Source of the DNA: a virus
Lineage: Duplodnaviria > Caudoviricetes
Length of the DNA: 58,402 nucleotides
IMG/VR virus record: IMGVR_UViG_3300030118_002679
Span: 1 to 58,402 of that record
Direction: 5' to 3' (one strand)
Below the pieces are notes generated by a model, which had not been told where the DNA came from, ran no database searches, and saw only the letters and a program-made list of their open reading frames with translations. The stretch's first letter is position 1; each line of letters begins with the position of its first letter. The translations under genes and the position numbers were made by a program. Of this stretch, positions 7,389 to 58,402 are shown in pieces.

Positions 7389-7689
7389 TTATACAGAAGA
7401 ATTACTTGGATTAAAGCGAGGTGGTATGCCGCCTCGTTCCAAGAAGTATTTTAGATCTACCAAATCTGGTGCAGGTATGACCAAAGCAGGTGTAGCTAGA
7501 TACAGAAGAGAAAACCCTGGATCAAAACTTAAAACAGCAGTAACAAAAAAAAAGAATTTAACAAAAAAAGAAAAAGCTAGAAGAAAATCATTTTGTGCAA
7601 GAAGTGCTGGACAAATGAAAAAATTTCCAAAAGCTGCTAAAGATCCTAATTCTAGATTAAGACAAGCTAGACGTAGATGGAGATGTTAA
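7381..7689 (+). CDS. Basic protein, DUF6321-like
   Basis: RRKSFCARSAG...KDPNSRLRQARRRWRC. Confidence 0.7.
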   Translation: MDSYTEELLGLKRGGMPPRSKKYFRSTKSGAGMTKAGVARYRRENPGSKLKTAVTKKKNLTKKEKARRKSFCARSAGQMKKFPKAAKDPNSRLRQARRRWRC

Positions 7690-11701: not shown

Positions 11702-13117
11702 GTGACTACTAGAACATTTACAGTTACAGTAGTAAATGTTAGTGGTAATAATAAGTATTTCATTGATGGAGTACAACAAGCTACTCTCAATCTAGCAGAG
11801 GCAGGTACTTATGTATTCAATTGGTCTGACAGCTCAGCAATAAATCATCCACTAAGGTTTTCTACAACTTCTGATGGCACACATGGTGGAGGATCAGAGT
11901 ACACTACAGGTGTCACTAAAAATGATGGTGCTTACACTACAACAATCACAGTAGCGATAGGTGCTCCAACTTTATACTATTATTGCCAATATCACCCAAA
12001 TATGGGTGGTCAAGCAAATACAGTATCTGCGACATCATGGGGTATGTTGTCTTGGAATACTGGTGCTTGGGGTAATCAAGCTGATTTAACATTCAGTGTA
12101 ACTGGTGTTAGTGCTACTACATCAATTGGTTCTGTTGTTGCTGATGGTGTTATAAATACTGGATGGGGTAGAGTAGCATGGGGTGAATTTGGTTGGGGTA
12201 TAGGAGGTCAGGTTGTTGCCTCTGGGGTAGCTACCACTTCAGCAGTTGGTAGCGTCTCACAAACTATTACAGCAGATTTAAATGTAACAGGAGTATCTTT
12301 AACAAGTTCAGTTGGCTCCGTATCTGTAGAAGTAGCACTAGATGTAACAGCACCAGATGTTAGTCTTACAAGTTCAGTTGGCTCTGTAGTAGTAACTCAC
12401 ACTGGTTTAGTCGCACCTACTGGTTTAGTAGCTACAACCAGTTTAGGAACTGCAAGTGTAGATGAAAGATTTTTAGTAGGCTCTGGTTGGGGTAGATTAA
12501 GTTGGGGTAACCAAGCATGGGGTGTGGTATATGGTGTAATACCTAGTGGATTAAGTATTAACTCTTCTGTTGGCACTTCTACAATAACAGGCGATTGTAA
12601 TATATCAGTTACTGGTGTATCAGTTACAAGCACAGTGGGAGCTGTAGCAGGCGTATCAACAGATATTTTAATTACACAAACTGGATTAGGATTAACCAGT
12701 TCAATAGGTACTTCTACTGTAGAAATAACTTTTGGTGCAGTAGTAACAGGTGTTTCTGCAACATCAGCAGTAGGTTCTGTAATAGTTGCACCTAAAATAG
12801 AAGTGCCAGTTACTAACTCTACCTTAACATCTTCTATTGGCACAGTTACTTTTACTATAACAGGTTCTACTTCAGTTACTGGAGTAGCTTCAACGTTCTC
12901 TGTAGGATCAATAGTTCCAGAGTCCATTTACTCTGTCACTGGTGTTGTGGCAACATCAGCTGCTGGTACTCCTACTGAAGTTACAGGTGAAGGAATTATA
13001 GATAATGTTACTGGGGTAGTGTTGACTGCTTCAACTTCTGCTTCTATAATAGTGGTGTGGTCAGAAATAGATACTGGCACACCAATAACTTGGACTGAGA
13101 TTACAACAGCAGCATAA
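11702..13117 (+). CDS. S/T/V/G-rich repetitive fibre with N-terminal cupredoxin-like domain
   Basis: HPLRFS...YYCQYHPNMG; repeats of VTGVSATxSVGxV and GWGRxxWG. Confidence 0.7.
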   Translation: MTTRTFTVTVVNVSGNNKYFIDGVQQATLNLAEAGTYVFNWSDSSAINHPLRFSTTSDGTHGGGSEYTTGVTKNDGAYTTTITVAIGAPTLYYYCQYHPNMGGQANTVSATSWGMLSWNTGAWGNQADLTFSVTGVSATTSIGSVVADGVINTGWGRVAWGEFGWGIGGQVVASGVATTSAVGSVSQTITADLNVTGVSLTSSVGSVSVEVALDVTAPDVSLTSSVGSVVVTHTGLVAPTGLVATTSLGTASVDERFLVGSGWGRLSWGNQAWGVVYGVIPSGLSINSSVGTSTITGDCNISVTGVSVTSTVGAVAGVSTDILITQTGLGLTSSIGTSTVEITFGAVVTGVSATSAVGSVIVAPKIEVPVTNSTLTSSIGTVTFTITGSTSVTGVASTFSVGSIVPESIYSVTGVVATSAAGTPTEVTGEGIIDNVTGVVLTASTSASIIVVWSEIDTGTPITWTEITTAA

Positions 13118-19427: not shown

Positions 19428-19774
19428 CTATAAGATATAAAAATCAGGGGTTTAAACAAACTGATACTAGCAAAACTACAGTATTTACTTGTCCTAGTGA
19501 TGCAACAGTTATAGTTAAAAGTGTTTATTGTGCAAACAATGATGCCTCATCAGCTATTTTAGTAAATATGAATTTTGTTGATTCATCTGATTCAAACACT
19601 GAATATGAATTTTTTAGAGATGATGTTGCAGCTAAATCGCAAGTAAATGCAACACCTCAAGGATTGAATTTAGAAGCAGGAGATGCTATAACTGTGCAAT
19701 CAGCAACAGGGAGTGGTAAGATACAAGGATTAATAAGTTATGCTCTTATAGATAGATTTTTGCAGAATGGCTAA
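19424..19774 (+). CDS. Virion structural protein (beta-sandwich)
   Basis: TVFTCPSDATVIVKS...LNLEAGDAITV. Confidence 0.6.
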   Translation: MTIRYKNQGFKQTDTSKTTVFTCPSDATVIVKSVYCANNDASSAILVNMNFVDSSDSNTEYEFFRDDVAAKSQVNATPQGLNLEAGDAITVQSATGSGKIQGLISYALIDRFLQNG

Positions 19775-20334
19775 TGCAAATCCATCAAGCTATTTATAAA
19801 GTAGAAAAAACTTTATCATTAAAATACTGTAAAGAATTAGTTGAATTTATAGACATCAAAGCTGTAACAAAAGCAAAAGTATTAATTGGTGGTAAAAATG
19901 TAGAGGACACTAAACAAAGAAATGTTTTTGATTATGGCTTGGATAAAGACAATAAAGAAGATGTAGAACATGGCAAAGTTTTAATGCAAAAAATGAAAGA
20001 AGCCTTAGATCAGTATGTGCAAACTTTTACTTATCTCAGAGAGGCTTCTCCACAAACAATAAACTTACTTAAATACACGAAAGGTAATTTTTACAGACCT
20101 CACATTGATGCGTTTCATACAGTAAATAGACAACTATCTTTTATTTTTTGTTTAAATGAAGACTACATTGGAGGTGAACTATATTTTTATCACCCTACTA
20201 CAAGAAAACCTTACTCACAAGCTAACTTAAAAACAGGTGATTTGATGATATTTCCAAGTAATTTTTTATATCCTCATCAGGTTACTCCAGTTACAAAGGG
20301 TGTCCGATATAGTGTCGTTGCTTGGTATAGTTAA
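19774..20334 (+). CDS. 2OG-Fe(II) oxygenase, prolyl-4-hydroxylase-like
   Basis: YRPHID, LNEDYIGGEL, IFPSNFLYPHQVTPVTKGVRYSVVAW. Confidence 0.88.
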   Translation: MQIHQAIYKVEKTLSLKYCKELVEFIDIKAVTKAKVLIGGKNVEDTKQRNVFDYGLDKDNKEDVEHGKVLMQKMKEALDQYVQTFTYLREASPQTINLLKYTKGNFYRPHIDAFHTVNRQLSFIFCLNEDYIGGELYFYHPTTRKPYSQANLKTGDLMIFPSNFLYPHQVTPVTKGVRYSVVAWYS

Positions 20335-21049: not shown

Positions 21050-21363
21050 AAATAAATTATAATAAATTTTATTATAATCCTTTACCAGATAATCTATCTA
21101 TAAGAAAAAGTGATATACATGGACATGGAATATTTGCTAACAAAGAAATAAAAAAAGATTATGATCTAGGAAGCACTCATATTAAGGTGCCTATGATATT
21201 AGGTTTTATTAGAACACCTTTGGGTGGTTTTATTAATCATTCCAACAAACCAAATTGTGTTTTAGAAGTTACTAGAGATTGGGATGATTATATTATTTAT
21301 AATGTATTTACAACTAGACTTATTAAAAAAAATGAAGAGTTATTATTAGAGTATGGTGCTTAA
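21046..21363 (+). CDS. SET-domain protein (putative lysine methyltransferase)
   Basis: KSDIHGHGIFA, GFINHSNKPN, IKKNEELLLEY. Confidence 0.85.
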   Translation: MKINYNKFYYNPLPDNLSIRKSDIHGHGIFANKEIKKDYDLGSTHIKVPMILGFIRTPLGGFINHSNKPNCVLEVTRDWDDYIIYNVFTTRLIKKNEELLLEYGA

Positions 21364-22292
21364 TGTTACCTAGAGGTGGAACAGAAATACAACATCATTT
21401 TTTATCACATTACGTGGATGAAAAACTTTTATCTAATTTTCAAATTTGCACATCTATACCTAATAAAGTTCCGATATTAGAAGATAAAATAAATATACTA
21501 TGGCAAAAAAATAGTTATGATCAACCAAACATTTATCCTTGGTTTGAAGACAAAAATAATCACGATAAATTTGATTGGTATATTTTTAATTCTCATTGGA
21601 ACTATGAGAAATTTAGATACAAGTTTGATGTGCCTACTAATAAATGTCACGTAATAAAAAATGGAGTTACTAATTTTCCAGAAAGAGCTTTATATAAAAA
21701 AGGTGATATGGTGAGAATGTTATTTCATGTTACTCCTTGGAGAGGTTTAAATGTTTTGCTAGGAGCTATGCAACAGTTACAAGATTGTAATGTGCATTTA
21801 GATGTGTTTAGTAGTTGTAAAATTTACGGTGAGGAGTTTGAAAAAGCTAATGAACATATTTATGAGCCTTTATATGAACAAGCAAGAAAACTAGAAAATG
21901 TAAATTATATCGGATATAAAGAACATTCTTTTATACAAAAATTTATGTATAGATATCATATGTTTGCCTATCCTAGTATATGGGAAGAAACAAGTTGTAA
22001 TGCAGCTCTTGAGGCAATGGCTAGTGGGTTATATTGTATTGTTACTAACTTTGGTGCATTGTATGAGACTTGTTCTGAGTTTCCTGTGTATGTTACTTAT
22101 GATAAAAACTATCGTAACTTATCTACTGCTTTTGCACATGCAATAAGAAGTGCAGTAGAACATATGGATCAACCAGAGATACATGAACATTTATTAATGC
22201 AACAAAACTTTGTGAAAAAATTTTATAGTTGGGAGAAGAAAAAATTAGAGTGGACAAATTTTTTACAAGGAGCATTAAATGCAAAATCATGA
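21363..22292 (+). CDS. GT-B glycosyltransferase (GT4-like)
   Basis: GGTE start, PWRGLNVLL, FAYPSIWEETSCNAALEAMASG. Confidence 0.85.
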   Translation: MLPRGGTEIQHHFLSHYVDEKLLSNFQICTSIPNKVPILEDKINILWQKNSYDQPNIYPWFEDKNNHDKFDWYIFNSHWNYEKFRYKFDVPTNKCHVIKNGVTNFPERALYKKGDMVRMLFHVTPWRGLNVLLGAMQQLQDCNVHLDVFSSCKIYGEEFEKANEHIYEPLYEQARKLENVNYIGYKEHSFIQKFMYRYHMFAYPSIWEETSCNAALEAMASGLYCIVTNFGALYETCSEFPVYVTYDKNYRNLSTAFAHAIRSAVEHMDQPEIHEHLLMQQNFVKKFYSWEKKKLEWTNFLQGALNAKS

Positions 22293-37051: not shown

Positions 37052-37744
37052 ATGGCTTATCTGACTGCGAACATACCTTACTTTAAATGTTGGGTAAGAA
37101 AAGAATTTACACACAATCATTCTAAGTATCATGGAGAATATGTTCACGCATTAGCTATAGCAGTGACATGTATTCCAGATAAATCACTATCTTTTCAAGT
37201 GGTGTTTACAGGTTGTGAAGATGAAGATAATAGATTAGAAGGTCCTCATGGTGGTGCTATGTGGGCACGCATGCCAATTCAATCTTTAGTGGCTGATGAA
37301 ATACTAGAAGACTTTCCTCCTAGAGTGCCTAATCATTTCATTCAGCCTTGGGATTGTTCCTCTAGATACTTCTCAATAATACGATATGATCGTACAAGCA
37401 GCTCGCCTTGGATTACAAAAATAGATGGTAATTTTTACAATGCTAAATATTATTTTACTATTGATTACACAAATGGTGATGACATGAACGCATTAGGTGA
37501 TGATGTTGCACAACATAAACAGTCTCATATTCTTGCTATTACTAGTGGTGAGTTCGCAGGACAAATCGTAGCTCAACCTAATAATAGAGTTCGTGTCACC
37601 AATCCGGCTTTATGGGTAACTGGATCTGGTGCACCAGACTTTGTGCCTAGTCAATATGATTTTAGTGCGGAAGAAGATGAGTCCTATATGGACCCTAATT
37701 ATACCTTTGATAATTTATATGCAAAAAAAAAGGAGACTAAGTAG
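37052..37744 (+). CDS. Conserved marine phage protein
   Basis: MAYLTANIPY..., GGAMWARMPI, QPWDC, QHKQSH, PNNRVR; TTGACT-16-TAAGAT promoter immediately upstream. Confidence 0.75.
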   Translation: MAYLTANIPYFKCWVRKEFTHNHSKYHGEYVHALAIAVTCIPDKSLSFQVVFTGCEDEDNRLEGPHGGAMWARMPIQSLVADEILEDFPPRVPNHFIQPWDCSSRYFSIIRYDRTSSSPWITKIDGNFYNAKYYFTIDYTNGDDMNALGDDVAQHKQSHILAITSGEFAGQIVAQPNNRVRVTNPALWVTGSGAPDFVPSQYDFSAEEDESYMDPNYTFDNLYAKKKETK

Positions 37745-46628: not shown

Positions 46629-46911
46629 AGATGATAATAAATTAGTTTATTTATTTAATAATAAAAAAAACGAAGAGAACAAAAAAGAATTAGATGAAAT
46701 GCTTATTGTTAGAAAAGCAATCATAAAAGCAATGAAGAACATAGAGTCTGAGGTATCCCCACATAACATAATAAAAGTTTTAGGGTTTTACTTATGTGAG
46801 ATAACTTTTAAGCATTGTCCAGACCCTTTTGTAGCTACTAATTTATTATTACAAATACTTGTAAACCAAACAGAAGCAGAGTCTTTGAAAATAATAAAGA
46901 GAGATATTTAA
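46621..46911 (+). CDS. Hypothetical protein
   Basis: ORF coupled to polA. Confidence 0.6.
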   Translation: MNKDDNKLVYLFNNKKNEENKKELDEMLIVRKAIIKAMKNIESEVSPHNIIKVLGFYLCEITFKHCPDPFVATNLLLQILVNQTEAESLKIIKRDI

Positions 46912-48770
46912 TGCAGTTAGTATTTCCATTACAAAAAAAAACTATGTGGTCTCCACCAATAGAATACAAAGATTTATCTAGTGCAACAGAAATAGCCATA
47001 GATTTAGAAACTAGAGATGATGGAATCAACAACGGTTTAGGAGCAGGCTGGGCATTTAATAAAGGTGAGATCATCGGTATGGCAGTTGCTACACAGGGGT
47101 TTAGTGCCTATTATCCTTTCGGACATTTAGGTGGTGGTAATTTGATTAAAGAGCAAGTCTTAAAATATATGCATGATATCTGTGCCTTGCCTTGTAGAAA
47201 AATATTTCATAATGCAGCTTATGATGTTGGGTGGTTACAGTCTTATGGTATTAGAGTAAATGGTGAGATTGTAGATACAATGATTGCTGGTGCCTTGTTA
47301 GATGAGAATAGATACTCGTATTCTCTTAATGCATTAGCAAAAGAATATTTAGGTGAGATGAAAGTAGAAAAAGATTTACGAGATACCGCTTTATTATATG
47401 GTGTAGATCCTAAGCAAGAGATGTGGAAACTACCTAGTGAAGCAGTTGGATTGTATGCTCAAGAAGATGCACGACTCACGTATGATTTATGGCAGCGAAT
47501 GAAACATGAATTAAACAAACAAAATTTATTAACCATATGGCAATTAGAAAGAGATCTTTTGCCGCACTTAATTGAAATGCGTAAAAGAGGTATTAGAGTA
47601 AACGAACCAGGTGCAGAAAAATTAAAAAAAGATTTTATTGCATCGGAAAAGAAAACGCTGCAAACGATTAAGAACGCTGTAGGTAAGGAAGTAGATATCT
47701 GGGCAGCCAGAAGCATAGCCACAGCTTACGATAAATTAGGCATTGAATATCCTAGAACAGGCAAGACGCAAGAACCAAGTTTCACGCAGCAATGGTTGAT
47801 GGAAGATAAAAACGATATATCAAAGTTGATTGTGCAAGCAAGAGAGATGAATAAGTTTCATAATACTTTTATCAATAGTATTTTAAAATACACACATAAT
47901 GGCAGAATACACGCTGAGATAAATCAGTTACGCAGTGATAATGGTGGAACCGTTAGTGGTAGATTATCTATGAACAATCCTAATTTGCAGCAACTACCTG
48001 CACGTAATAAAGAATTTGGTGGTTTGATACGAGGATTGTTTCTACCAGAAGAAGGTGAAAAGTTTACTGCACTTGATTATAGCCAGCAAGAACCTCGCCT
48101 CGCAGTGCATTATAGTTTGGCCTTAGAATATGAGGGAGCAAAAGAGATAGCTTTATCATATGAAAAAGGAGATGGAGACTTTCATCAATCGGTAGCAGAC
48201 TTATGTGGTATTGATAGGAAGAGTGCTAAAACGATTTCATTAGGCTTGATGTATGGTATGGGTAAAAATAAATTAGCCAACATGTTAGGATTAACTTTTG
48301 ATGAGGCTAGTTCTTTAATTGATAAGTATAATCGTAAAGCTCCGTTTTTAAAAATGCTATCAGACAAGTGTATGGACAAAGCACAGAACGAAGGGGTGAT
48401 ACGCACTAAGTTAGGAAGAAAATGTCGCTTTGATTTGTATGAGCCAAAAGACTGGGGTGTACATACTCCAGAGAGATATGACAATGCCTCAGCTAAATAT
48501 GGAGCAAAAAATATTAAAAGAGCCTACACATACAAAAGTCTTAACCGATTGATACAAGGCAGCTCCGCAGATCTGACAAAGAAAGCTATGCTAGAATGTG
48601 CGAAGATGGGTCATTTACCATTGCTCCAGATCCACGATGAATTATGTTTTAGTATCAAAGATCAAAAAGATATAGAACATATAAAAAGTAAAATGGAAAA
48701 TTGTGTAGAGTTCCTGGTGCCTATGAAAGTGGATGTAGCTATTGGTGAAAATTTTGGTGAAACTATCTAA
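46911..48770 (+). CDS. polA: Family A DNA polymerase with 3'-5' exonuclease
   Basis: IDLET, HNAAYD, YAQED, GRLS..NPNLQQ, DYSQQEPR, AKTISLGLMYG, QIHDEL. Confidence 0.95.
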   Translation: MQLVFPLQKKTMWSPPIEYKDLSSATEIAIDLETRDDGINNGLGAGWAFNKGEIIGMAVATQGFSAYYPFGHLGGGNLIKEQVLKYMHDICALPCRKIFHNAAYDVGWLQSYGIRVNGEIVDTMIAGALLDENRYSYSLNALAKEYLGEMKVEKDLRDTALLYGVDPKQEMWKLPSEAVGLYAQEDARLTYDLWQRMKHELNKQNLLTIWQLERDLLPHLIEMRKRGIRVNEPGAEKLKKDFIASEKKTLQTIKNAVGKEVDIWAARSIATAYDKLGIEYPRTGKTQEPSFTQQWLMEDKNDISKLIVQAREMNKFHNTFINSILKYTHNGRIHAEINQLRSDNGGTVSGRLSMNNPNLQQLPARNKEFGGLIRGLFLPEEGEKFTALDYSQQEPRLAVHYSLALEYEGAKEIALSYEKGDGDFHQSVADLCGIDRKSAKTISLGLMYGMGKNKLANMLGLTFDEASSLIDKYNRKAPFLKMLSDKCMDKAQNEGVIRTKLGRKCRFDLYEPKDWGVHTPERYDNASAKYGAKNIKRAYTYKSLNRLIQGSSADLTKKAMLECAKMGHLPLLQIHDELCFSIKDQKDIEHIKSKMENCVEFLVPMKVDVAIGENFGETI

Positions 48771-49822: not shown

Positions 49823-50237
49823 AATACTCAAAATTATAACTGGTTTCATTATCTGCTAATAATTTAGCACCATTTCTTAGATGAAAGTTTTTAGCCATTT
49901 CAGTTTTTGGAGATAATGTCACATATCGTTTTGTTTGTAATAATTGTAATAATTCGTTAAGTATTAATCGACCATAACCTTTCTCATATGACCATACCGT
50001 ATAAAATATAGTAAACTCATCTGCTGCTGATAATGAATATATTTCCAACTGTTCCATATCAATAGGACATTTAAATGTATTAGCGATACATACTACTGCC
50101 TTACCTGGTATCGTATATATACATCTACCTTGTGATGTTCTAAAGGCATAACTTACATCACGTACTGGATCGTCTTTAATTTGTACTTGTGATTGATTAG
50201 TTACTTTTTTTAGTTTCGATTTTGTCTGGTGTGACAT
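49815..50237 (-). CDS. GNAT-fold protein with malonyl-CoA decarboxylase-like motifs
   Basis: IFYTVWS, GYGRLIL, VTLSP, NFHLRNGA. Confidence 0.6.
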   Translation of the reverse strand: MSHQTKSKLKKVTNQSQVQIKDDPVRDVSYAFRTSQGRCIYTIPGKAVVCIANTFKCPIDMEQLEIYSLSAADEFTIFYTVWSYEKGYGRLILNELLQLLQTKRYVTLSPKTEMAKNFHLRNGAKLLADNETSYNFEYFK

Positions 50238-50718
50238 CTATTATGTTTTTAGCCTCGCCTATTTTATGTTCAAGCTCCTCTAATCGTTTTTCTAATTGAT
50301 CTCTACTCATACCTTCTAATGTAGAGTGAGTTATTTGTTTATGATCTACGTATAGTCCAGCTAGTTGACCAGAACGATACTCAGCATTAATGGATGCATT
50401 AAACTGACCCTTGGCTGACGATTGATCTCTTAAATCATCTAATATCTTGTAGCGTCTTAATTTATCTTTCTCGTACTTTTCTTTTTCTTCACCTATTCTT
50501 TTTTCCATATAGCGGCAGATATGAGGATTGATATCTGGGTTCGTAAGCTTCGATGCAAGAACCATGGCACTCTCTCTTGTTTTCGTATTATAACCACTCT
50601 CGATTAACGCATCAGTCTTAGTTATCTTTCCCCAATTGTCTACTAATATATCTATAAACTTTTTTTGTTTATCAGTTAGGTCTTTTATAGATCTCAGTTC
50701 TCTTCTTTTTTGTGCCAT
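50197..50718 (-). CDS. terS: Terminase small subunit
   Basis: LTDKQKKF...ALIESGY...ASKL N-terminal HTH of the Terminase_2 type. Confidence 0.7.
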   Translation of the reverse strand: MAQKRRELRSIKDLTDKQKKFIDILVDNWGKITKTDALIESGYNTKTRESAMVLASKLTNPDINPHICRYMEKRIGEEKEKYEKDKLRRYKILDDLRDQSSAKGQFNASINAEYRSGQLAGLYVDHKQITHSTLEGMSRDQLEKRLEELEHKIGEAKNIIDVTPDKIETKKSN

Positions 50719-51547: not shown

Positions 51548-52555
51548 ATGAGTAAATTTGTAAAATTAATACAAGTAGATGGTAAGTTGCCTAATTTAGC
51601 ATTGATGAAATTAAGTTCATATTATAAAGAAAATGGTTATCAAGTAGATTTTACCAGATCAGTTCATAAAGATTTGTTTGATAAGAACTATCACTTTGTT
51701 TTTGCGTCAAGCATTTTTAAATTTAGTAAAAACAGAATACAAAGACTTAAACAAAATTATCCTAAAGCAATAATAGGGGGAACTGGCACTGATGATTGGA
51801 AACTATCTATAGAAGACTATATTGGTGATTATGATAAATATGATTACACAATTTATCCAGAATATAATTTTAGTTTAGGCTTTACCCAAAGAGGGTGCAG
51901 ACTAAAATGTAAATTTTGTGTTGTACCTATTAAAGAGGGAAAAAACAGATCAGTAATTAATTCAGTGTATGATATTTGGAGGGGAGAAGGTTATCCAAAA
52001 AAGCTGCATCTTTTAGATAATGACTTCTTTGGACAACCAGAAGAGCAATGGAAATTAAGAGTAAAAGAAATACAAGAGGGCAAATTTCAAGTATGTTTTA
52101 ATCAAGGCATAAATATAAGATTGATAGACGAAACAGTAGCAGAAAACTTGGCTACTATAAATTTTAAAGATGATTCTTTTACAAGAAAAAGAATTTACAC
52201 AGCTTGGGATAATATCGGAGATGAAAAAAGATTTTTTAAGGGTGTTAACTTATTAGTAAAGTATGGAATAAAGCCAAATCAAATAATGGCATATATGTTA
52301 ATTGGTTATGATAAAAGAGAAACTTGGGATCGCATATGGTATAGATTTAATAAGATGGTAGATGTTGGTGTGTATCCTTATCCAATGGTATATGATCCTT
52401 TACAACAAAAAACAGAATTAAAACAATTCCAAAGGTATGCAGTACGTCAATATTATAGACACAAAACATGGAAAGAATATTTATACTGGTACAATAATAG
52501 AAGTATATCCAGTATGGATCAAAAGAAGCAAATAGATTTATATGAAAACAAATAA
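51548..52555 (+). CDS. Radical SAM enzyme
   Basis: TQRGCRLKCKFCVV (CxxxCxxC); PNLALMKLS N-domain; LLDNDF. Confidence 0.88.
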   Translation: MSKFVKLIQVDGKLPNLALMKLSSYYKENGYQVDFTRSVHKDLFDKNYHFVFASSIFKFSKNRIQRLKQNYPKAIIGGTGTDDWKLSIEDYIGDYDKYDYTIYPEYNFSLGFTQRGCRLKCKFCVVPIKEGKNRSVINSVYDIWRGEGYPKKLHLLDNDFFGQPEEQWKLRVKEIQEGKFQVCFNQGINIRLIDETVAENLATINFKDDSFTRKRIYTAWDNIGDEKRFFKGVNLLVKYGIKPNQIMAYMLIGYDKRETWDRIWYRFNKMVDVGVYPYPMVYDPLQQKTELKQFQRYAVRQYYRHKTWKEYLYWYNNRSISSMDQKKQIDLYENK

Positions 52556-52887: not shown

Positions 52888-53298
52888 ATGGAAAAAAATT
52901 TGTGGTCTTCACTTAACCAAATACAAAAGACAGATCCAATGATGTTTTTAATGAGAGTAGAATCTAGTACAATCAACGGAATACCTGACGTTCACGCATG
53001 TCATAAAGGTCATTCTTTTTGGTTAGAGTTGAAATCAAATGATGATAAGAAATATGGCTTATCCAAATATCAAATTATCTGGCAGATAGATTATTTAAAT
53101 GTAGGAGGCAATGTATTCAACTTAGTTTTGGCCCCCTCGCAGAGGGCACTCAAACTTGTGAGATTGAATCCAGCTTTGTTCTCATTTTGTACTGGGTTTG
53201 TGCCGCATGAAAAAAGTTTCCAGGTGCTCGGATCTAAACCGTATAACAAAAAAAATTTACAATCTATAATTAAGTTGGCAAGTGATTCGTGTCGTTAG
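52888..53298 (+). CDS. PD-(D/E)xK nuclease, VRR-NUC / Holliday-junction resolvase-like
   Basis: RVES...GIPDV...FWLELK...LSKYQIIWQ. Confidence 0.85.
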   Translation: MEKNLWSSLNQIQKTDPMMFLMRVESSTINGIPDVHACHKGHSFWLELKSNDDKKYGLSKYQIIWQIDYLNVGGNVFNLVLAPSQRALKLVRLNPALFSFCTGFVPHEKSFQVLGSKPYNKKNLQSIIKLASDSCR

Positions 53299-53324
53299 TT
53301 CGCATAACTGTTATTATGTTAAAA
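53297..53324 (+). other. dif-like XerC/XerD recombination site
   Basis: AGTTCGCATAA-CTGTTA-TTATGTTAAAA vs E. coli GGTGCGCATAA-TGTATA-TTATGTTAAAT (arms 9/11 and 10/11). Confidence 0.8.
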
Positions 53325-53518
53325 AAAGGCGTTTGTTCTATCTTTGTTCCGCATGGGCCGTAAAAGAAGGCTCAAGATTTTTTGGCAATAGTCAAGTATT
53401 ATTTTATTTTTTTTTGGGGGTCGCAAAAATTTATGTTACTGTGCGTATAGCTATAGGTTGAGTTGAATACATACATATAGGGAGTAAACATATCGGTTGT
53501 TTTATGTTATAAAAAATT

Positions 53519-53836
53519 ATGGCAAAAAAATTACAAAAAAATTCTAACTATGCACAATACGATATAAATAATGATGGAACAGTATCTGATGAAGAACTGG
53601 AGCATATGAAAGAAATAAAAAGATTAGAAGGTGAATTAAGAAAGCATAGAGCACAAAGAAGAATGGCGACATTTACTTTAGTTGGTATGGGATTATTCAC
53701 TGCTATGATGTTTATGCCTTTTATGACTGTAGAAAAAATAGATGCTCTTAGTGACATTAGTAATTTGTTTTATATTTCTGGAGCAGGTATTGTTGGTGCA
53801 TATATGGGAGCAACAGCCTGGATGTCAAAAAAATAA
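53519..53836 (+). CDS. EF-hand-containing two-TM membrane protein
   Basis: YDINNDGTVSDEEL loop followed by two hydrophobic helices. Confidence 0.75.
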   Translation: MAKKLQKNSNYAQYDINNDGTVSDEELEHMKEIKRLEGELRKHRAQRRMATFTLVGMGLFTAMMFMPFMTVEKIDALSDISNLFYISGAGIVGAYMGATAWMSKK

Positions 53837-55308
53837 TGAGTGTTGATCATCTAACTACTGATAGATTAAGACTAAAAGTAGAAAAAGTTTTTATACAACA
53901 TATAAAACTTTGCCAAGATAATTTTTTATATTTTGTACAAGAGATGTGGCAAGATTTTATTTGCAGAAAAGAAAAAGATAAAAGTAAATGGGGTCATCAT
54001 CAAATTATTGCAAATGAGTTTTCTCAAATAGCTAATAAAAGAAAAGGAAGGCTCATAATTAACATGCCTCCAAGACATACTAAATCAGAATTTGCATCTG
54101 TATATTTTCCAGCTTGGATCATAGGGAAGTTTCCAAAATTAAAAATTATGCAAGTGTCACATAACACAGAACTAGCAGTTCGTTTTGGAAGTAAGGTTCG
54201 TAACATAATAGATTCTCAAGAGTACAAACAAATTTTTGGAGATGTAAAATTACGTGAAGACTCTAAAGCTAAAGGAAGATGGGAAACTAATCATGGTGGT
54301 GAATATTATGCAGCTGGTGTAGGGGCATCAATAACTGGTCGTGGTGCAGATTTATTAATCATTGATGATCCACATACGGAACAAGATTCAATGTCTGACT
54401 TAGCTATGGAACGAGCATATGATTGGTATACATCCGGACCCAGACAAAGATTACAACCTGGCGGATCTATTCTTTTGGTTATGACAAGATGGGCCGAAGA
54501 TGATTTGACTGGTAGATTATTGAAGGCTCAAAAAGAACCCAAAGCTGATACATGGAAAACAATATCTTTTCCTGCGATCTTACCAGATGGTAAACCAGTG
54601 TGGTCAGAATATTGGGAGAAAGAAGAATTAGAAAAGATCAAAGCTTCATTACCCATAAGAAATTGGTCAGCACAATATATGCAAGAGCCTACTTCCGAAG
54701 AAGGTGCGATTATCAAACGAGAATGGTGGCAACCTTGGAAAGAGGAATCCATGCCAAACTTAGTTCATGTCATACAAAGTTATGACACAGCGTTTAGTAA
54801 AAAAGAAACAGCAGACTATTCTGCTATTACTACTTGGGGTGTTTTTTATCCAGATGAAGTTACACCTAATATTATTTTGTTAGATGCTTTACGTGGTAAA
54901 TATGATTTTCCAGAATTGAAAGTAGTGGCAATGGATGCGTATAAATATTGGGAACCAGAAAGTGTAATCATAGAACAAAAAGCAAGTGGTGAACCTTTAA
55001 CTCAAGAATTTAGAAGAATGGGAATACCAGTGATACCATTTGTGCCAAGTAAAGGTAATGATAAATTTACCAGAGTAAATTCAGTAGCACCAATTTTTGA
55101 AAGCGGTGCAGTGTGGTTTCCTTACGGAGAAACTTTTTCAGATGAGGTAATAGAAGAGTGTGCAGCGTTCCCTCATGGTGCAAACGATGATTACGTTGAC
55201 AGTATGACCCAAGCACTGTTACGATATAGACAAGGTAACTTTGTTGAACTATACTCTGATTATGTGGACAATGAAGACTTACCACCAAAACAATATAATT
55301 ATTATTGA
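53836..55308 (+). CDS. terL: Terminase large subunit
   Basis: INMPPRHTKS, ITGRGADLLIIDDP, VMTRW, SYDTA, IEQKASG, DDYVDS. Confidence 0.95.
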   Translation: MSVDHLTTDRLRLKVEKVFIQHIKLCQDNFLYFVQEMWQDFICRKEKDKSKWGHHQIIANEFSQIANKRKGRLIINMPPRHTKSEFASVYFPAWIIGKFPKLKIMQVSHNTELAVRFGSKVRNIIDSQEYKQIFGDVKLREDSKAKGRWETNHGGEYYAAGVGASITGRGADLLIIDDPHTEQDSMSDLAMERAYDWYTSGPRQRLQPGGSILLVMTRWAEDDLTGRLLKAQKEPKADTWKTISFPAILPDGKPVWSEYWEKEELEKIKASLPIRNWSAQYMQEPTSEEGAIIKREWWQPWKEESMPNLVHVIQSYDTAFSKKETADYSAITTWGVFYPDEVTPNIILLDALRGKYDFPELKVVAMDAYKYWEPESVIIEQKASGEPLTQEFRRMGIPVIPFVPSKGNDKFTRVNSVAPIFESGAVWFPYGETFSDEVIEECAAFPHGANDDYVDSMTQALLRYRQGNFVELYSDYVDNEDLPPKQYNYY

Positions 55309-56194: not shown

Positions 56195-56646
56195 CAAATT
56201 ATCCTAAAGGCACTTTAGCAAGAAGATTATCAGAAGAAGATAATCCTACAGGTTATCCAAGAGGCTCTCAAGCAGATAAAATAGTAAGAGCTGAAAGAAG
56301 AGTAAAAAAACAAAGAAAAGAATCTGAGGATAGAAAAAAGAAAAAGAAAGTCACAAAACCAGATCCAGGGAAAGGCAGATCATTTAATCAAAAGCTATTA
56401 GCGTATGAAACCCTTACTGGAGAAAGTGCTTTACAACCTTTGCAAGATTTAATTAGAGGACCCTCGGCTCCAGATATAGCTGTACCAGATTTAGCATCAG
56501 AAGTACGTGAGGGAGTAGAAGCAAAGAAAGCGTTAATAAGAGCTACACCTAAAATGTATCCTATGTATTATGAGAGAGCTAAAAAAGGTAAATTTGTAAA
56601 AGTAAAAACTAAATTAGGCAGAACAAAAAAAACTAAGTTGTTATGA
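56191..56646 (+). CDS. Basic hypothetical protein
   Basis: Short repeat TNYPKGT/TGYPRGS; ends RAKKGKFVKVKTKLGRTKKTKLL. Confidence 0.65.
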   Translation: MTNYPKGTLARRLSEEDNPTGYPRGSQADKIVRAERRVKKQRKESEDRKKKKKVTKPDPGKGRSFNQKLLAYETLTGESALQPLQDLIRGPSAPDIAVPDLASEVREGVEAKKALIRATPKMYPMYYERAKKGKFVKVKTKLGRTKKTKLL

Positions 56647-58402
56647 TAGAAGAAGAAAACACAGAACAAGAAAACGAAGAGATCGTTGACGAAGTAGATA
56701 CACGAGCTGGTGAAGTAGATGTACAAATAACAGAACCTACTGAAGTAGAAGAGTTAGTAGAAGATATTATAGAAACACAAAAAGATTTTTTATCTAATCT
56801 GGCTGAAGATATGGATGAAAGAATTTTGTCTCGTATTAGTGGTGACTTACTAGAAGATTATAAAAGAGATAAAGAATCAAGAGGTGATTGGGAAAAGTCA
56901 TATACTTCTGGTTTAGATTTATTAGGTTTTAAATATGATAATGAAAGCAGACCTTTTCAAGGAGCAAGTTCTGTGACACATCCTTTACTAGCAGAATCTG
57001 TAACACAGTTTCAAGCTCAAGCTTATAAAGAATTATTACCTAGTGATGGACCAGTTCGTACTTTAGTTATTGGAGATGCGACTAGAGAAAAAGAAGAACA
57101 AGCACAAAGAGTAAAAGAGTTTATGAATTATATGTTGATGGAACAAATGGAAGAGTATACTCCAGAGTTTGATCAATTATTATTTTATTTACCATTAGCA
57201 GGATCTGCTTTTAAAAAAATATATTACGATGAAACTATGCAAAGAGCTATATCAAAGTTTGTTCCAGCAGAAGATTTAATCGTTCCTTATTATGCAACTG
57301 ATTTGAAAGATTGTGAACGTATCACGCATCTTGTTAAAATGAATGAAAACGACATTTTAAAAAAACAAAGAAGTGGTTTTTATAGAGATGTAGAAATCTT
57401 ACCTTCACGCACCGATGATGATGAAGTGCAAGACAAATATGATTCTATTGAAGGGGTAACTCCTTCTGGAGAAAAAGATTATCAGTTTAATGTTTTAGAA
57501 ATGCACGTAGATTTAGATCTTGAAGAGTATCAAATAGAAAATGCAGACAAAAATGTTAAAGTTCCTTACATCGTAACGATTGATGAAGGCTCACAAGAAG
57601 TGTTATCTATCTATCGTAACTATGATATGAACGATCCGTTGTTCCAAAGAAAAGAATATTTTGTACATTACAAATTTTTGCCAGGTTTGGGATTTTATGG
57701 GTTTGGATTGATACACATGATAGGTGGTTTATCTAAAACTGCTACTGCTGCACTAAGACAATTATTAGATGCTGGCACTTTATCAAACTTACCAGCTGGT
57801 TTTAAGTCACGAGGTATGCGAATTAGGGATGACGATCAGCCTTTTCAACCTGGCGAGTTTAGAGATGTAGATGCACCTGGCGGTAATATCAAGGATCAGT
57901 TTCAAATTTTACCATTTAAAGAGCCAAGTCAAACATTATTTTCACTTTTAGGCTTTGTTGTACAAGCTGGACAGAGATTTGCAGCCATAACAGACAACGC
58001 AATTGGCAATGATGCACAAAATAGAGCTGTTGGAACGACTATTGCACTCTTAGAACGAGGCTCACGAGTCATGTCAGCCATACATAAGCGTTGTTATTAT
58101 GCTATGAGGCAAGAATTTAGGTTATTATCGGATGTTTTTGGCACATATTTACCACCAATTTATCCTTATGCTGTGTATGGTGGTAATAGACTCATAAAAT
58201 TAGCAGATTTTTCACCAGAAGTAGATGTAATTCCTGTTGCAGACCCCAATATTTTCTCAATGGCACAAAGAGTGACGTTAGCACAGACACAATTACAGAT
58301 TGCACAGTCAAATCCACAATTACATAACATTCGTGAAGCATATCGTAGAGTTTATGAAGCGTTAGGCACGAAACAAATAGATACATTGCTGAAACCAGAG
58401 AG
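56643..58402 (+). CDS. Portal protein, N-terminal part (about 783 aa when joined to 134-725; missing from ORF track)
   Basis: Frame appears open from ATG 56643 to the window end: RPFQGASSVTHPLLAESVTQFQAQAYKELLP, LPLAGSAFKK, GFYGFGLIH, LRQLLDAGTLSNLP; follows terL. Confidence 0.9.
   Translation, partial: MIEEENTEQENEEIVDEVDTRAGEVDVQITEPTEVEELVEDIIETQKDFLSNLAEDMDERILSRISGDLLEDYKRDKESRGDWEKSYTSGLDLLGFKYDNESRPFQGASSVTHPLLAESVTQFQAQAYKELLPSDGPVRTLVIGDATREKEEQAQRVKEFMNYMLMEQMEEYTPEFDQLLFYLPLAGSAFKKIYYDETMQRAISKFVPAEDLIVPYYATDLKDCERITHLVKMNENDILKKQRSGFYRDVEILPSRTDDDEVQDKYDSIEGVTPSGEKDYQFNVLEMHVDLDLEEYQIENADKNVKVPYIVTIDEGSQEVLSIYRNYDMNDPLFQRKEYFVHYKFLPGLGFYGFGLIHMIGGLSKTATAALRQLLDAGTLSNLPAGFKSRGMRIRDDDQPFQPGEFRDVDAPGGNIKDQFQILPFKEPSQTLFSLLGFVVQAGQRFAAITDNAIGNDAQNRAVGTTIALLERGSRVMSAIHKRCYYAMRQEFRLLSDVFGTYLPPIYPYAVYGGNRLIKLADFSPEVDVIPVADPNIFSMAQRVTLAQTQLQIAQSNPQLHNIREAYRRVYEALGTKQIDTLLKPE
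58270..58402. repeat. Terminal direct repeat, right copy
   Basis: 132/133 identical to 1-133. Confidence 0.97.

What the first reader, a model, noticed from the sequence alone, without database searches (positions are those of the whole stretch)
53297..53324. dif-like XerCD site in an integrase-less tailed phage
Seen: AGTTCGCATAA-CTGTTA-TTATGTTAAAA has the 11-6-11 layout of dif. It matches E. coli dif at 9/11 (XerC arm) and 10/11 (XerD arm) and starts a non-coding gap between the resolvase and the packaging operon. I recognised no tyrosine or serine recombinase in the genome. Established: IMEX elements (CTXphi, TLC, GGI) integrate at dif using host XerCD, and plasmids use such sites to resolve dimers. 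Inference: this podovirus either integrates at the host dif or persists/replicates as a circle resolved by host Xer. The spacer differs from TGTATA, which favours self-dimer resolution unless the host dif has this spacer.
Basis: partly seen in the sequence, partly recalled or inferred. Interest (0 to 1): 0.85.

Follow-up and report, generated by a model that had tools for sequence, protein, structure and literature searches.

The report
Bacterial dif site kept by marine phages
A clade of abundant, apparently strictly lytic marine phages with no recombinase of their own carries a strongly conserved copy of the bacterial XerC/XerD chromosome-resolution site (dif), so they probably use the host's recombinases on their own DNA.

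Summary
The 28-mer at 53297-53324 is real and is not a chance match. It differs from E. coli dif at 3 of 22 arm positions, is the only such hit in the window, and appeared in 0 of 100 shuffles.

The window is a 98%-complete relative of Pelagibacter phage HTVC023P. Six-frame searches found no tyrosine or serine recombinase, XafT, ParA/B or Cro/CI-type domain.

The site defines one TerL clade. All 33 members with enough upstream sequence have it, one copy per genome, always between an Hjc/RecU-like nuclease gene and the packaging operon. Relatives outside the clade lack it, including HTVC023P and HTVC027P.

The arms are almost invariant and the spacer varies as freely as the flanks. One subclade carries the site inverted, with different XerC-arm outer bases. 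Both arm versions match single-copy chromosomal sites in bacteria 22 of 22, but with other spacers.

I found no prophage and no phage-host junction.

Best reading: a captured dif core that recruits host XerC/XerD for phage-with-phage recombination, not integration. Binding, recombination and host identity are all untested. This is a new variant of Xer exploitation, in a lytic-type tailed phage.

The parts
53297..53324 (+). dif-type 28-bp core site: XerC-type arm 53297-53307 (AGTTCGCATAA), spacer 53308-53313 (CTGTTA), XerD-type arm 53314-53324 (TTATGTTAAAA)
   Evidence: 1 hit, 0/100 shuffles. Conserved in 21 group-1 loci and, inverted, in 11 group-2 loci of the 80 examined. Mean entropy: arms 0.067 bits, spacer 0.750, flanks 0.834 over 19 unique contexts.
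52888..53298 (+). 136-aa PD-(D/E)XK nuclease, Hjc/RecU-like (probable Holliday-junction resolvase); its stop codon overlaps the site
   Evidence: Invariant E25, P33-D34 and E47-L48-K49 in 9 homologues. Pfam Hjc E 0.047, below cut-off. AF2 model pLDDT 83.1. Foldseek top hits Hjc, RecU/PrfA and VRR-NUC, prob 0.98-0.99, all E>0.001. The same gene lies directly upstream of the site in group 2 at 47% identity.
53299..53518 (+). Conserved non-coding region between the replication and packaging modules. It holds two TTTGTTC repeats 11 bp apart (53332-53338, 53343-53349), AGAAGGCTCA (53365-53374), a T-run and further conserved blocks.
   Evidence: Alignments A1 (12 group-1 sequences, mean column identity 81%) and A2 (groups 1 and 2). 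Function not tested. Sigma-70-like sites are no more frequent than in shuffles (6 against 4.5 +/- 2.1).
53519..53836 (+). 105-aa ORF of unknown function. It is a variable cargo gene: absent in relatives where the site lies 223-232 nt from TerL.
   Evidence: PHROG 27150, E 1.2e-7, unknown function. Site-to-TerL distances of -223 to -232, -539/-540 and -1198.
53836..55308 (+). Large terminase subunit, first recognisable gene of the packaging and structural operon
   Evidence: PHROG 38 E 2.6e-119; Pfam Terminase_6N and Terminase_6C.

Best explanation
The 28-mer is a genuine XerC/XerD-type (dif-type) core site. It was captured from a bacterial chromosome and has been kept under strong purifying selection in one clade of HTVC023P-type podophages. 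These phages have their own replication genes but no recombinase, partition or repressor genes.

Inferred mechanism: in the infected cell, host XerC and XerD bind the two arms. They then recombine two copies of the phage site with each other. That could be sister copies in a multimer, copies on two co-replicating genomes, or the two ends of a terminally redundant molecule. The result would be circularisation, or interconversion of monomers and multimers, just ahead of the packaging operon. This would work like P1 Cre/loxP, with the enzyme supplied by the host. Because only identical phage copies need to pair, the spacer is free to drift. A non-host spacer also limits crossing-over with the host dif.

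Shown here: the site, its conservation pattern, its exact arm matches to bacterial sites, and the absence of phage recombinases. Inferred: XerC/XerD binding, catalysis, the partner site and the benefit to the phage.
For: 1) Not chance: 1 hit, 0/100 shuffles, 1.1e-3 expected.

2) Clade-wide retention. In a quick TerL tree of 82 rows, the site-bearing loci form one clade of 38 rows (SH-aLRT 92). Of these, 33 have enough upstream sequence and all 33 carry the site. The 43 IMG/VR loci outside the clade show none in the sequence held, up to 4 kb upstream but under 750 nt for six of them. HTVC023P and HTVC027P, scanned whole, have none. Complete site-less relatives G328, G329 and G330 have none anywhere, and site-bearing records have exactly one perfect copy.

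3) Protein-site signature. Arms have 0.067 bits entropy, against 0.750 for the spacer and 0.834 for the flanks (19 unique contexts). Spacer positions 1 and 6 are fixed and positions 2-5 are free.

4) The outer, non-palindromic arm bases are conserved too. The RNA hairpin is no more stable than shuffles (z 0.0 and -0.48).

5) Arms equal real bacterial sites 22/22. Group-1 arms (the variant ending in T) match 116 non-phage metagenome contigs. Group-2 arms match single-copy sites in genomes G152 and G115, drawn from the class of a MAG titled Maricaulis.

6) The sister subclade has the site inverted at the same spot, with different outer bases on the XerC-type arm. A recombination or binding site tolerates this.

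7) No PF00589, PF00239 or DUF3653 in the window. No PF00589 in 0 of 19 viral records, 10 of them site-bearing relatives.

8) The window shares its four-substitution spacer CTGTTA with L003 and L361, whose flanks are only 66-75% and 71% identical to it. Its nearest flanks, L006 and L351 at 82-88%, carry CGTACA. This hints at exchange confined to the core.
Against: Nothing here shows XerC/XerD binding or strand exchange.

The host is unknown. Cultured relatives infect Pelagibacter, and Carnoy & Roten 2009 state that P. ubique has no dif/Xer system (passage seen). A 2026 preprint says SAR11 genomes do carry XerC and XerD (passages seen). My attempts to settle this failed.

A phage that packages from concatemers has no obvious need for dimer resolution. 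Chromosomal dif recombination normally needs FtsK at the septum (stated in the PMC9226527 abstract), and no XafT-like activator was found.

The physical genome ends are unknown, so the circularisation variant is untested. Contig ends do not cluster near the site (values, inspected by eye).

The tree is the quick version; the careful search did not finish.
Confidence: 0.45

Rival explanations
1. IMEX-type lysogeny: the phage genome integrates at the host chromosome's dif through host XerC/XerD, as CTXphi, VGJphi and TLCphi do.
For: The phage has no integrase yet carries a full dif-type site. The arms are identical to chromosomal sites. Group-2 spacers (TATACA, TATGCA) share the XerC-side TAT with the TATATA found in three of the 20 fetched class-sample genome sites and in the low-GC marine contigs. 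From recall, VGJphi-type sites show that kind of one-sided homology. TATACA spacers do occur in some chromosomes of the class sample, for example G012 and G049.
Against: - The TerL search of one genome per 185,579 species returned only a 7.5-kb MAG contig (74% identity) and a 29%-identical prophage-like hit. Neither is an integrated relative.
- 30 of 30 and 14 of 14 phage-related viral contigs have phage sequence on both sides of the site.
- None of 116 metagenome contigs with group-1 arms and a non-C first spacer base shows any similarity to the phage.
- No HTH_3 repressor domain was found.
- Six spacers occur among TerL sequences at least 91% identical, whereas 11 of 13 low-GC chromosomal contigs share one spacer.
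- The group is described as lytic, with no integrase in related environmental sequences (bioRxiv 10.1101/2019.12.14.876532, passages seen).
Confidence: 0.12
2. Binding only: the site docks host XerC/XerD, or one of them, without recombination. It could act as an architectural or roadblock element at the boundary between the replication and late operons, or it could titrate Xer proteins.
For: The site sits at the 5' edge of a highly conserved 220-nt regulatory region between two gene modules. Invariant arms with a free spacer fit pure binding equally well. An earlier unchecked note of this scan proposed the same for another marine phage (e1-5914001).
Against: Spacer length is fixed at 6 and spacer positions 1 and 6 are invariant, which suggests that catalytic geometry matters. 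The site works in either orientation relative to the downstream region. The further TTATGTTA motifs in the gap are not kept as TTAT in group 2. No regulatory role for XerCD at a dif site is known to me (recall).
Confidence: 0.2
3. The 28-mer is the target of some other protein, such as a phage DNA-binding protein, the terminase (as a pac signal) or another host recombinase. Its likeness to dif is then convergence.
For: It lies next to the packaging genes, where pac sites often lie (recall). The host may lack Xer, going by Carnoy & Roten on P. ubique.
Against: A 22/22 arm identity to bacterial chromosomal sites in two different arm versions is hard to get by convergence. Site-less relatives with about 84-88% identical terminases have nothing similar. 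Unrelated phage lineages with different terminase contexts carry the same arms.
Confidence: 0.08
4. A functionless relic of a past recombination with a host chromosome, or a chance match.
For: Only one copy per genome. No activity has been shown.
Against: 0/100 shuffles. The arms are about 12 times less variable than the flanking sequence across 19 unique contexts. The site is retained in 33 of 33 testable clade members.
Confidence: 0.02

Closest known systems
Chromosomal dif with XerC/XerD (and FtsK) of Proteobacteria
   Same: 11-6-11 layout and an inner CATAA/TTATG palindrome. The XerD arm TTATGTTAAAT is identical in most relatives. Arms match marine chromosomal sites 22/22. Single copy per replicon.
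   Different: It sits on a 58-kb phage genome at a module boundary, not at a replication terminus. The spacers are not the TGTATA or TATATA that dominate chromosomal sites: 72 of 116 metagenome sites carry one of those, against 0 of 31 unique phage-clade contexts.
IMEXs: CTXphi, VGJphi, TLCphi, gonococcal island, Xanthomonas filamentous phages
   Same: A mobile element without an integrase that carries a dif-like site and depends on host Xer (abstracts and passages of PMC6744903, PMC4246890 and PMC9226527).
   Different: Those are small ssDNA or satellite elements found integrated at dif, and some carry the activator XafT. Here we have a tailed dsDNA phage with its own DNA polymerase, no XafT and no integrated copies found.
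Plasmid multimer-resolution sites (cer, psi) and pdif modules of Acinetobacter plasmids
   Same: Host Xer acts on an extrachromosomal replicon's own site. The spacer differs from the chromosomal one (recall).
   Different: cer and psi need about 180 bp of accessory sequence and accessory proteins on the XerC side (recall). Here the XerC side is the end of a coding gene in group 1 and the site is flipped in group 2. There is no array of sites bounding cassettes, just one site per genome.
Phage P1 Cre/loxP (recalled, not retrieved here)
   Same: A site-specific crossover site in a tailed phage, used on the phage's own DNA for cyclisation of terminally redundant molecules and for dimer resolution.
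   Different: P1 encodes its own recombinase and lives as a plasmid prophage. This phage has no recombinase and no partition genes.
Temperate Microviridae (gokushoviruses) and double-jelly-roll or PM2-like prophages with dif-like attachment sites
   Same: Phages without an integrase that use dif-like sites (titles and abstracts of PMC7062461, PMC3091885, PMC12715192 and PMC9966536, seen in the listings).
   Different: Those are non-tailed and are known as prophages next to dif. This one is a lytic-type tailed phage with no prophage form found.

Membership tests
dif-type XerC/XerD core site | Two 11-bp arms around a 6-bp spacer, with the inner arms an inverted repeat | tested here: met
   Spacer length is 6 in all 31 unique contexts.
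dif-type XerC/XerD core site | Arms match the proteobacterial consensus, with the XerD arm better conserved than the XerC arm | tested here: met
   9/11 and 10/11 to E. coli dif. 22/22 to bacterial sites. The XerD arm is identical between groups 1 and 2, while the XerC arm differs at its outer 3 bases.
dif-type XerC/XerD core site | Bound and recombined by XerC and XerD | not testable with these tools
   Needs EMSA and recombination assays. The host and its Xer proteins are unidentified.
dif-type XerC/XerD core site | Lies at the replication terminus of a circular replicon, with FtsK-orienting polar sequences converging on it | not tested
   The phage origin and terminus are unknown. Cumulative GC skew rises through the site without a turn. 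No KOPS analysis was done.
IMEX (integrative mobile element exploiting Xer) | No integrase of its own, and a dif-like attachment site | tested here: met
IMEX (integrative mobile element exploiting Xer) | Found integrated at a host dif, flanked by dif and dif-like sites | tested here: not met
   No integrated relative in genome contigs. 44 of 44 phage-related contigs have phage sequence on both sides. Limits: the TerL search finds close relatives only, and read-level junctions could not be examined.
IMEX (integrative mobile element exploiting Xer) | Spacer homology with the host dif on at least the side of first strand exchange | tested here: inconclusive
   The host is unknown. Against the TATATA of low-GC marine chromosomes with the same arms, group-1 spacers differ at position 1 and usually position 5. 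Group-2 spacers share positions 1-3.
Plasmid resolution site (cer/psi type) | About 180 bp of accessory sequence beside the XerC arm that binds accessory proteins (recalled definition) | tested here: inconclusive
   The XerC side is coding sequence in group 1. The site is inverted in group 2 while the conserved non-coding block stays on the same side. No accessory-protein sites were tested.
Plasmid prophage (P1/N15-like) | Partition genes and/or its own Xer/Cre-like recombinase | tested here: not met
   No PF13614, PF02195 or PF00589 in six frames.

The most novel reading that the evidence does not exclude
A virulent tailed phage of the most abundant known marine phage group uses the host's XerC/XerD as a borrowed Cre/lox system. 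The dif copy is an active crossover point that circularises or multimerises phage genomes ahead of packaging. Its spacer is kept different from the host's so that the phage recombines with itself and not with the chromosome. The site has been captured or replaced at least twice at the same spot, given the two arm versions and two orientations. The same trick appears in several unrelated recombinase-less phage lineages.
Probability: 0.3. Interest if true: 0.8.

Novelty: new variant of a known kind. Interest (0 to 1): 0.66.

Why it matters
In the papers my searches returned, Xer exploitation is described for plasmids, filamentous phages, microviruses, PM2-like phages and genomic islands. It always serves dimer resolution of a resident replicon or integration. 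Two full-text searches (listings and some passages read) returned no report of a host-type dif site in a lytic-type tailed phage.

This site is conserved in a subclade of the HTVC023P-type group, described as the most abundant known marine viral group (bioRxiv 10.1101/2019.12.14.876532). If host Xer does act on these genomes, three things follow:
- A host function joins the replication and packaging cycle of virulent phages.
- The arms offer a sequence-based clue to hosts of uncultured phages, since they copy bacterial dif.
- The frequent dif-like sites with odd spacers on viral contigs get an explanation.

Tried and rejected
**Read-level evidence.** One search listed 20 runs that hold part of the stretch, all kept as contigs. 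None was laid, so I draw nothing from them.

**Finding SAR11 genomes to read their dif and Xer genes.** All of these failed:
- Genomes reached through a MAG locus carry no taxon labels.
- The SAM-V riboswitch family gave only 2 sub-threshold hits in 47 small genomes.
- The family of one of those genomes (25 genomes) showed dif-pattern hits at or below control level.
- The family and order of G107 returned one genome each.
- The SAR11-441R probe, taken from PMC5604061, hit 0 of 79 small genomes.
- The protein atlas gave phylum-level taxa only.
- A phylum sample of 401 genomes held nothing closer than about 70% nucleotide identity, over its longest matches, to the low-GC contig L263.

So whether Pelagibacter has dif/Xer, and which bacterium hosts this phage, stay open. 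I call the low-GC contigs gammaproteobacterial only because their gene order (clpA-clpS-icd, mnmA-purB-aceA) matches Pseudomonas as I recall it.

**Readings rejected.**
- Lone XerD half-sites in the gap. TTTATGTTA occurs twice there, out of 3 in the whole window, but group 2 has AAAATGTTAC at that place.
- Hairpin or terminator.
- Second sites. The 2-mismatch hits in G325, G327 and G333 lie in coding sequence.

**Other.** A 3000-replicate Markov simulation timed out and was replaced by an analytic estimate. Supplementary tables of Carnoy & Roten and of the pelagiphage papers, which I could not see, may list dif sites or clade membership relevant here.

Full report
**What the window is**

The window is a whole IMG/VR virus record: 58,402 bp, linear, 98% complete. 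Its nearest cultured relative is Pelagibacter phage HTVC023P, at 73% nucleotide identity over the terminase and portal region.

The gene map is as follows:
- Structural genes, + strand, about 1-37.7 kb.
- A minus-strand cluster at 38-41 kb that includes an SNF2-type helicase.
- A replication module at 41.5-53.3 kb: primase, helicase, family-A DNA polymerase at 46911-48770, a radical-SAM protein, and a 136-aa nuclease at 52888-53298.
- A 220-nt gap, a 105-aa ORF, the large terminase at 53836-55308, and a portal gene cut by the contig end.

No tRNA genes were found.

**The observation**

AGTTCGCATAA-CTGTTA-TTATGTTAAAA lies at 53297-53324. Against the E. coli K12 dif printed in Carnoy & Roten 2009, the arms match 9/11 and 10/11. 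It is the only hit in the window at up to 3 mismatches, and none of 100 shuffles gave a hit. A composition model expects 1.1e-3 hits.

**No recombinase or lysogeny genes**

Six-frame family searches of the window found none of the following: tyrosine recombinase (PF00589), serine recombinase (PF00239), XafT-type DUF3653, ParA (PF13614), ParB (PF02195) or Cro/CI HTH_3. The control genomes gave hits for each family.

PF00589 was also absent from 19 of 19 viral records searched whole. These were 10 site-bearing relatives, 3 site-less relatives and 6 unrelated site-bearing records.

The authors who described the group report no integrase in the isolates or in related environmental sequences. They suggest a strictly lytic life and note that group members may infect different taxa (bioRxiv 10.1101/2019.12.14.876532, passages seen).

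**Conservation in relatives**

A TerL search of IMG/VR found 366 relatives, of which the best 80 were fetched. Among those 80 loci:
- 21 carry the same arms on the + strand (0-2 mismatches), 223-1198 nt upstream of TerL.
- 11 carry a dif-type site on the opposite strand at -181 to -770. It reads TTGTCG[C/T]ATAA, TAGTCGCATAA or A[AG][GA]TCGGATAA, then TA[TC][AG]CA, then TTATGTTAAAT.
- 48 have nothing better than 6 mismatches.

In a quick TerL tree (82 rows; the careful search did not finish), all site-bearing loci form one clade of 38 rows (SH-aLRT 92). It splits into group 1 (24 rows, support 99) and group 2 (14 rows, support 99). The five clade members without a site have only 6-315 nt of upstream sequence and cannot be judged.

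Outside the clade, no locus shows the site in the sequence held (up to 4 kb upstream, under 750 nt for six loci). HTVC023P and HTVC027P, scanned whole, have none. Three 95-100% complete relatives also have none anywhere. Site-bearing records have exactly one perfect copy. Their few 2-mismatch extras lie in coding sequence.

**Pattern of variation**

Over 19 unique group-1 contexts, mean column entropy is 0.067 bits in the arms, 0.750 in the spacer and 0.834 in the flanks. Spacer positions 1 (C) and 6 (A) never change. Positions 2-5 give CATACA, CACACA, CTGTTA, CCTACA, CTTGTA and CGTACA.

Group 2 (12 contexts) is less diverged overall but shows the same order: 0.116, 0.232 and 0.270. Its spacers are TATACA, TATGCA and TACACA.

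The outer arm bases are not self-complementary yet are conserved too. The RNA hairpin is no better than shuffles. This is the pattern expected of a site whose two arms are each read by a protein while the middle is not read.

The rest of the 220-nt gap is also well conserved. It is shared between groups 1 and 2, and the 28-mer is flipped relative to it.

The nuclease gene directly upstream is the same in both groups, at 47% identity. It has an E...PD...ELK motif. Its best fold matches are Holliday-junction resolvases (Hjc, RecU), with weak E-values of 5e-3 and above.

**Comparison with bacterial sites**

None is similar to the phage, and GC ranges from 0.28 to 0.66.

Thirteen contigs have GC of 0.33 or less, several with Tara-type accession prefixes. 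Eleven of these share the spacer TATATA. They are related to one another (67-92% identity in the flanks) and carry housekeeping genes: clpA, icd, mnmA, purB and isocitrate lyase. So low-GC marine bacteria have a chromosomal site with exactly the phage's arms but another spacer.

Group-2 arms equal, 22/22, single-copy sites in genomes G152 and G115. These come from a 301-genome sample of the class of a MAG titled Maricaulis, that is Alphaproteobacteria.

The two phage subclades therefore carry two natural dif versions in two orientations at one locus. That suggests capture or replacement more than once (inference).

**Tests of integration**

- The TerL search of one genome per 185,579 species found no integrated relative.
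- Viral contigs carrying the group-1 or group-2 28-mers number 42 and 23. Of those related to the window, 30 of 30 and 14 of 14 have phage-like sequence on both sides of the site.
- Read-level junctions could not be examined.

**Wider picture**

Of those same contigs, 12 of the 42 and 9 of the 23 belong to unrelated viral lineages. Two are complete 37-39 kb records with terminal repeats, and one of those (L345) carries a ParA-like gene. Neither has a tyrosine recombinase.

On 116 other viral contigs with a dif-like core, only 26 have the spacers TGTATA or TATATA, against 72 of the 116 metagenome contigs. The two scans used different patterns, so this comparison is descriptive only.

Earlier unchecked notes of this scan describe dif copies in other recombinase-less phages.

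**Interpretation**

That the 28-mer is a selected, protein-read, dif-derived site seems secure (about 0.85). What it does is inferred. I favour Xer-mediated recombination between phage copies because:
- the spacer is free but its length and end positions are fixed;
- the spacers avoid the chromosomal ones;
- no integrated form appears;
- the window shares a four-substitution spacer with L003 and L361, whose flanks are only 66-75% identical, while its nearest flanks carry another spacer.

A binding-only role and IMEX-type integration remain possible.

The main weakness is the host. Cultured relatives infect Pelagibacter. Carnoy & Roten say it lacks dif/Xer, while a 2026 preprint says SAR11 genomes carry XerC and XerD. 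I could not resolve this.

**Novelty**

Two full-text searches returned Xer-exploiting filamentous, microvirus and PM2-like phages, and plasmid prophages with their own Xer-like recombinases (PMC8026635, passages seen). They returned no lytic-type tailed phage with a host dif site. I rate this a new variant of a known kind.

Noticed in passing
L345 (site 13087-13112, - strand) and L352 (site 7454-7479, + strand): An unrelated low-GC (0.32-0.33) phage lineage. Both are complete 37-39 kb records with terminal repeats, the same arms, and spacers CGTGCA and CGCACA. L345 carries a ParA-like gene, and a PHROG-37247 gene sits beside the site in both. Neither has a tyrosine recombinase. They may be phage-plasmids relying on host Xer.
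   Followed up: partly
L382-L385, L388, L389, L394: A GC ~0.49 viral lineage, unrelated to the window, carrying AAGTCGCATAA-TACACA-TTATGTTAAAT. L354 and L370 (83-88 kb records) carry AGTTCGCATAA-CACCCA-TTATGTTAAAT.
   Followed up: no
L082-L199 compared with L229-L344: dif-like cores on viral contigs have far more varied spacers than those on metagenome contigs: 26/116 against 72/116 are TGTATA or TATATA, and C at spacer position 5 occurs in 32 against 4. The two scans used different patterns, so this is descriptive only.
   Followed up: partly
L234, L249, L254, L261, L263, L267, L278, L299, L306, L318, L331: Low-GC (0.28-0.33) marine chromosomal contigs share AGTTCGCATAA-TATATA-TTATGTTAAAT. 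The genes beside the site differ between contigs, which suggests a variable region at their dif.
   Followed up: partly
window 53332-53349 and 53365-53374: Two TTTGTTC repeats 11 bp apart are conserved in group 1, and group 2 lacks the first. The motif AGAAGGCTCA followed by a T-run is conserved in both groups. Function unknown.
   Followed up: partly
window 56643-58400 and 3-725: The portal ORF runs off the 3' end of the contig and an ORF opens at base 3. The record is therefore probably a broken circular or permuted assembly, not a molecule with true ends.
   Followed up: no
window 50197-50718 (- strand): A 173-aa ORF with weak similarity to small terminase subunits (PHROG 51, E 2.4e-7, N-terminal part only). 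It lies on the opposite strand, 3 kb from the large terminase.
   Followed up: no
window 19774-20334, 21363-22292, 37052-37744, 51548-52555: Auxiliary-type genes: 2OG-Fe(II) oxygenase, glycosyltransferase, a ferredoxin-annotated family and a radical-SAM protein.
   Followed up: no
L397 (G333:C1:14387-14414): A second, weaker dif-like 28-mer (AAGCTGGATAA-TCTACA-TTATGCTAAAG) lies inverted 6.6 kb from the main site in one group-2 record. It is inside an open reading frame homologous to window 2.7-2.9 kb, so it is probably chance.
   Followed up: partly
literature: Carnoy & Roten 2009 state that Pelagibacter ubique has no dif/Xer system. A 2026 bioRxiv preprint (10.64898/2026.10.07.757358) states that XerC and XerD are the only site-specific recombinases common in Arctic SAR11 genomes. 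The two statements conflict, and the SAR11 dif appears undescribed.
   Followed up: partly
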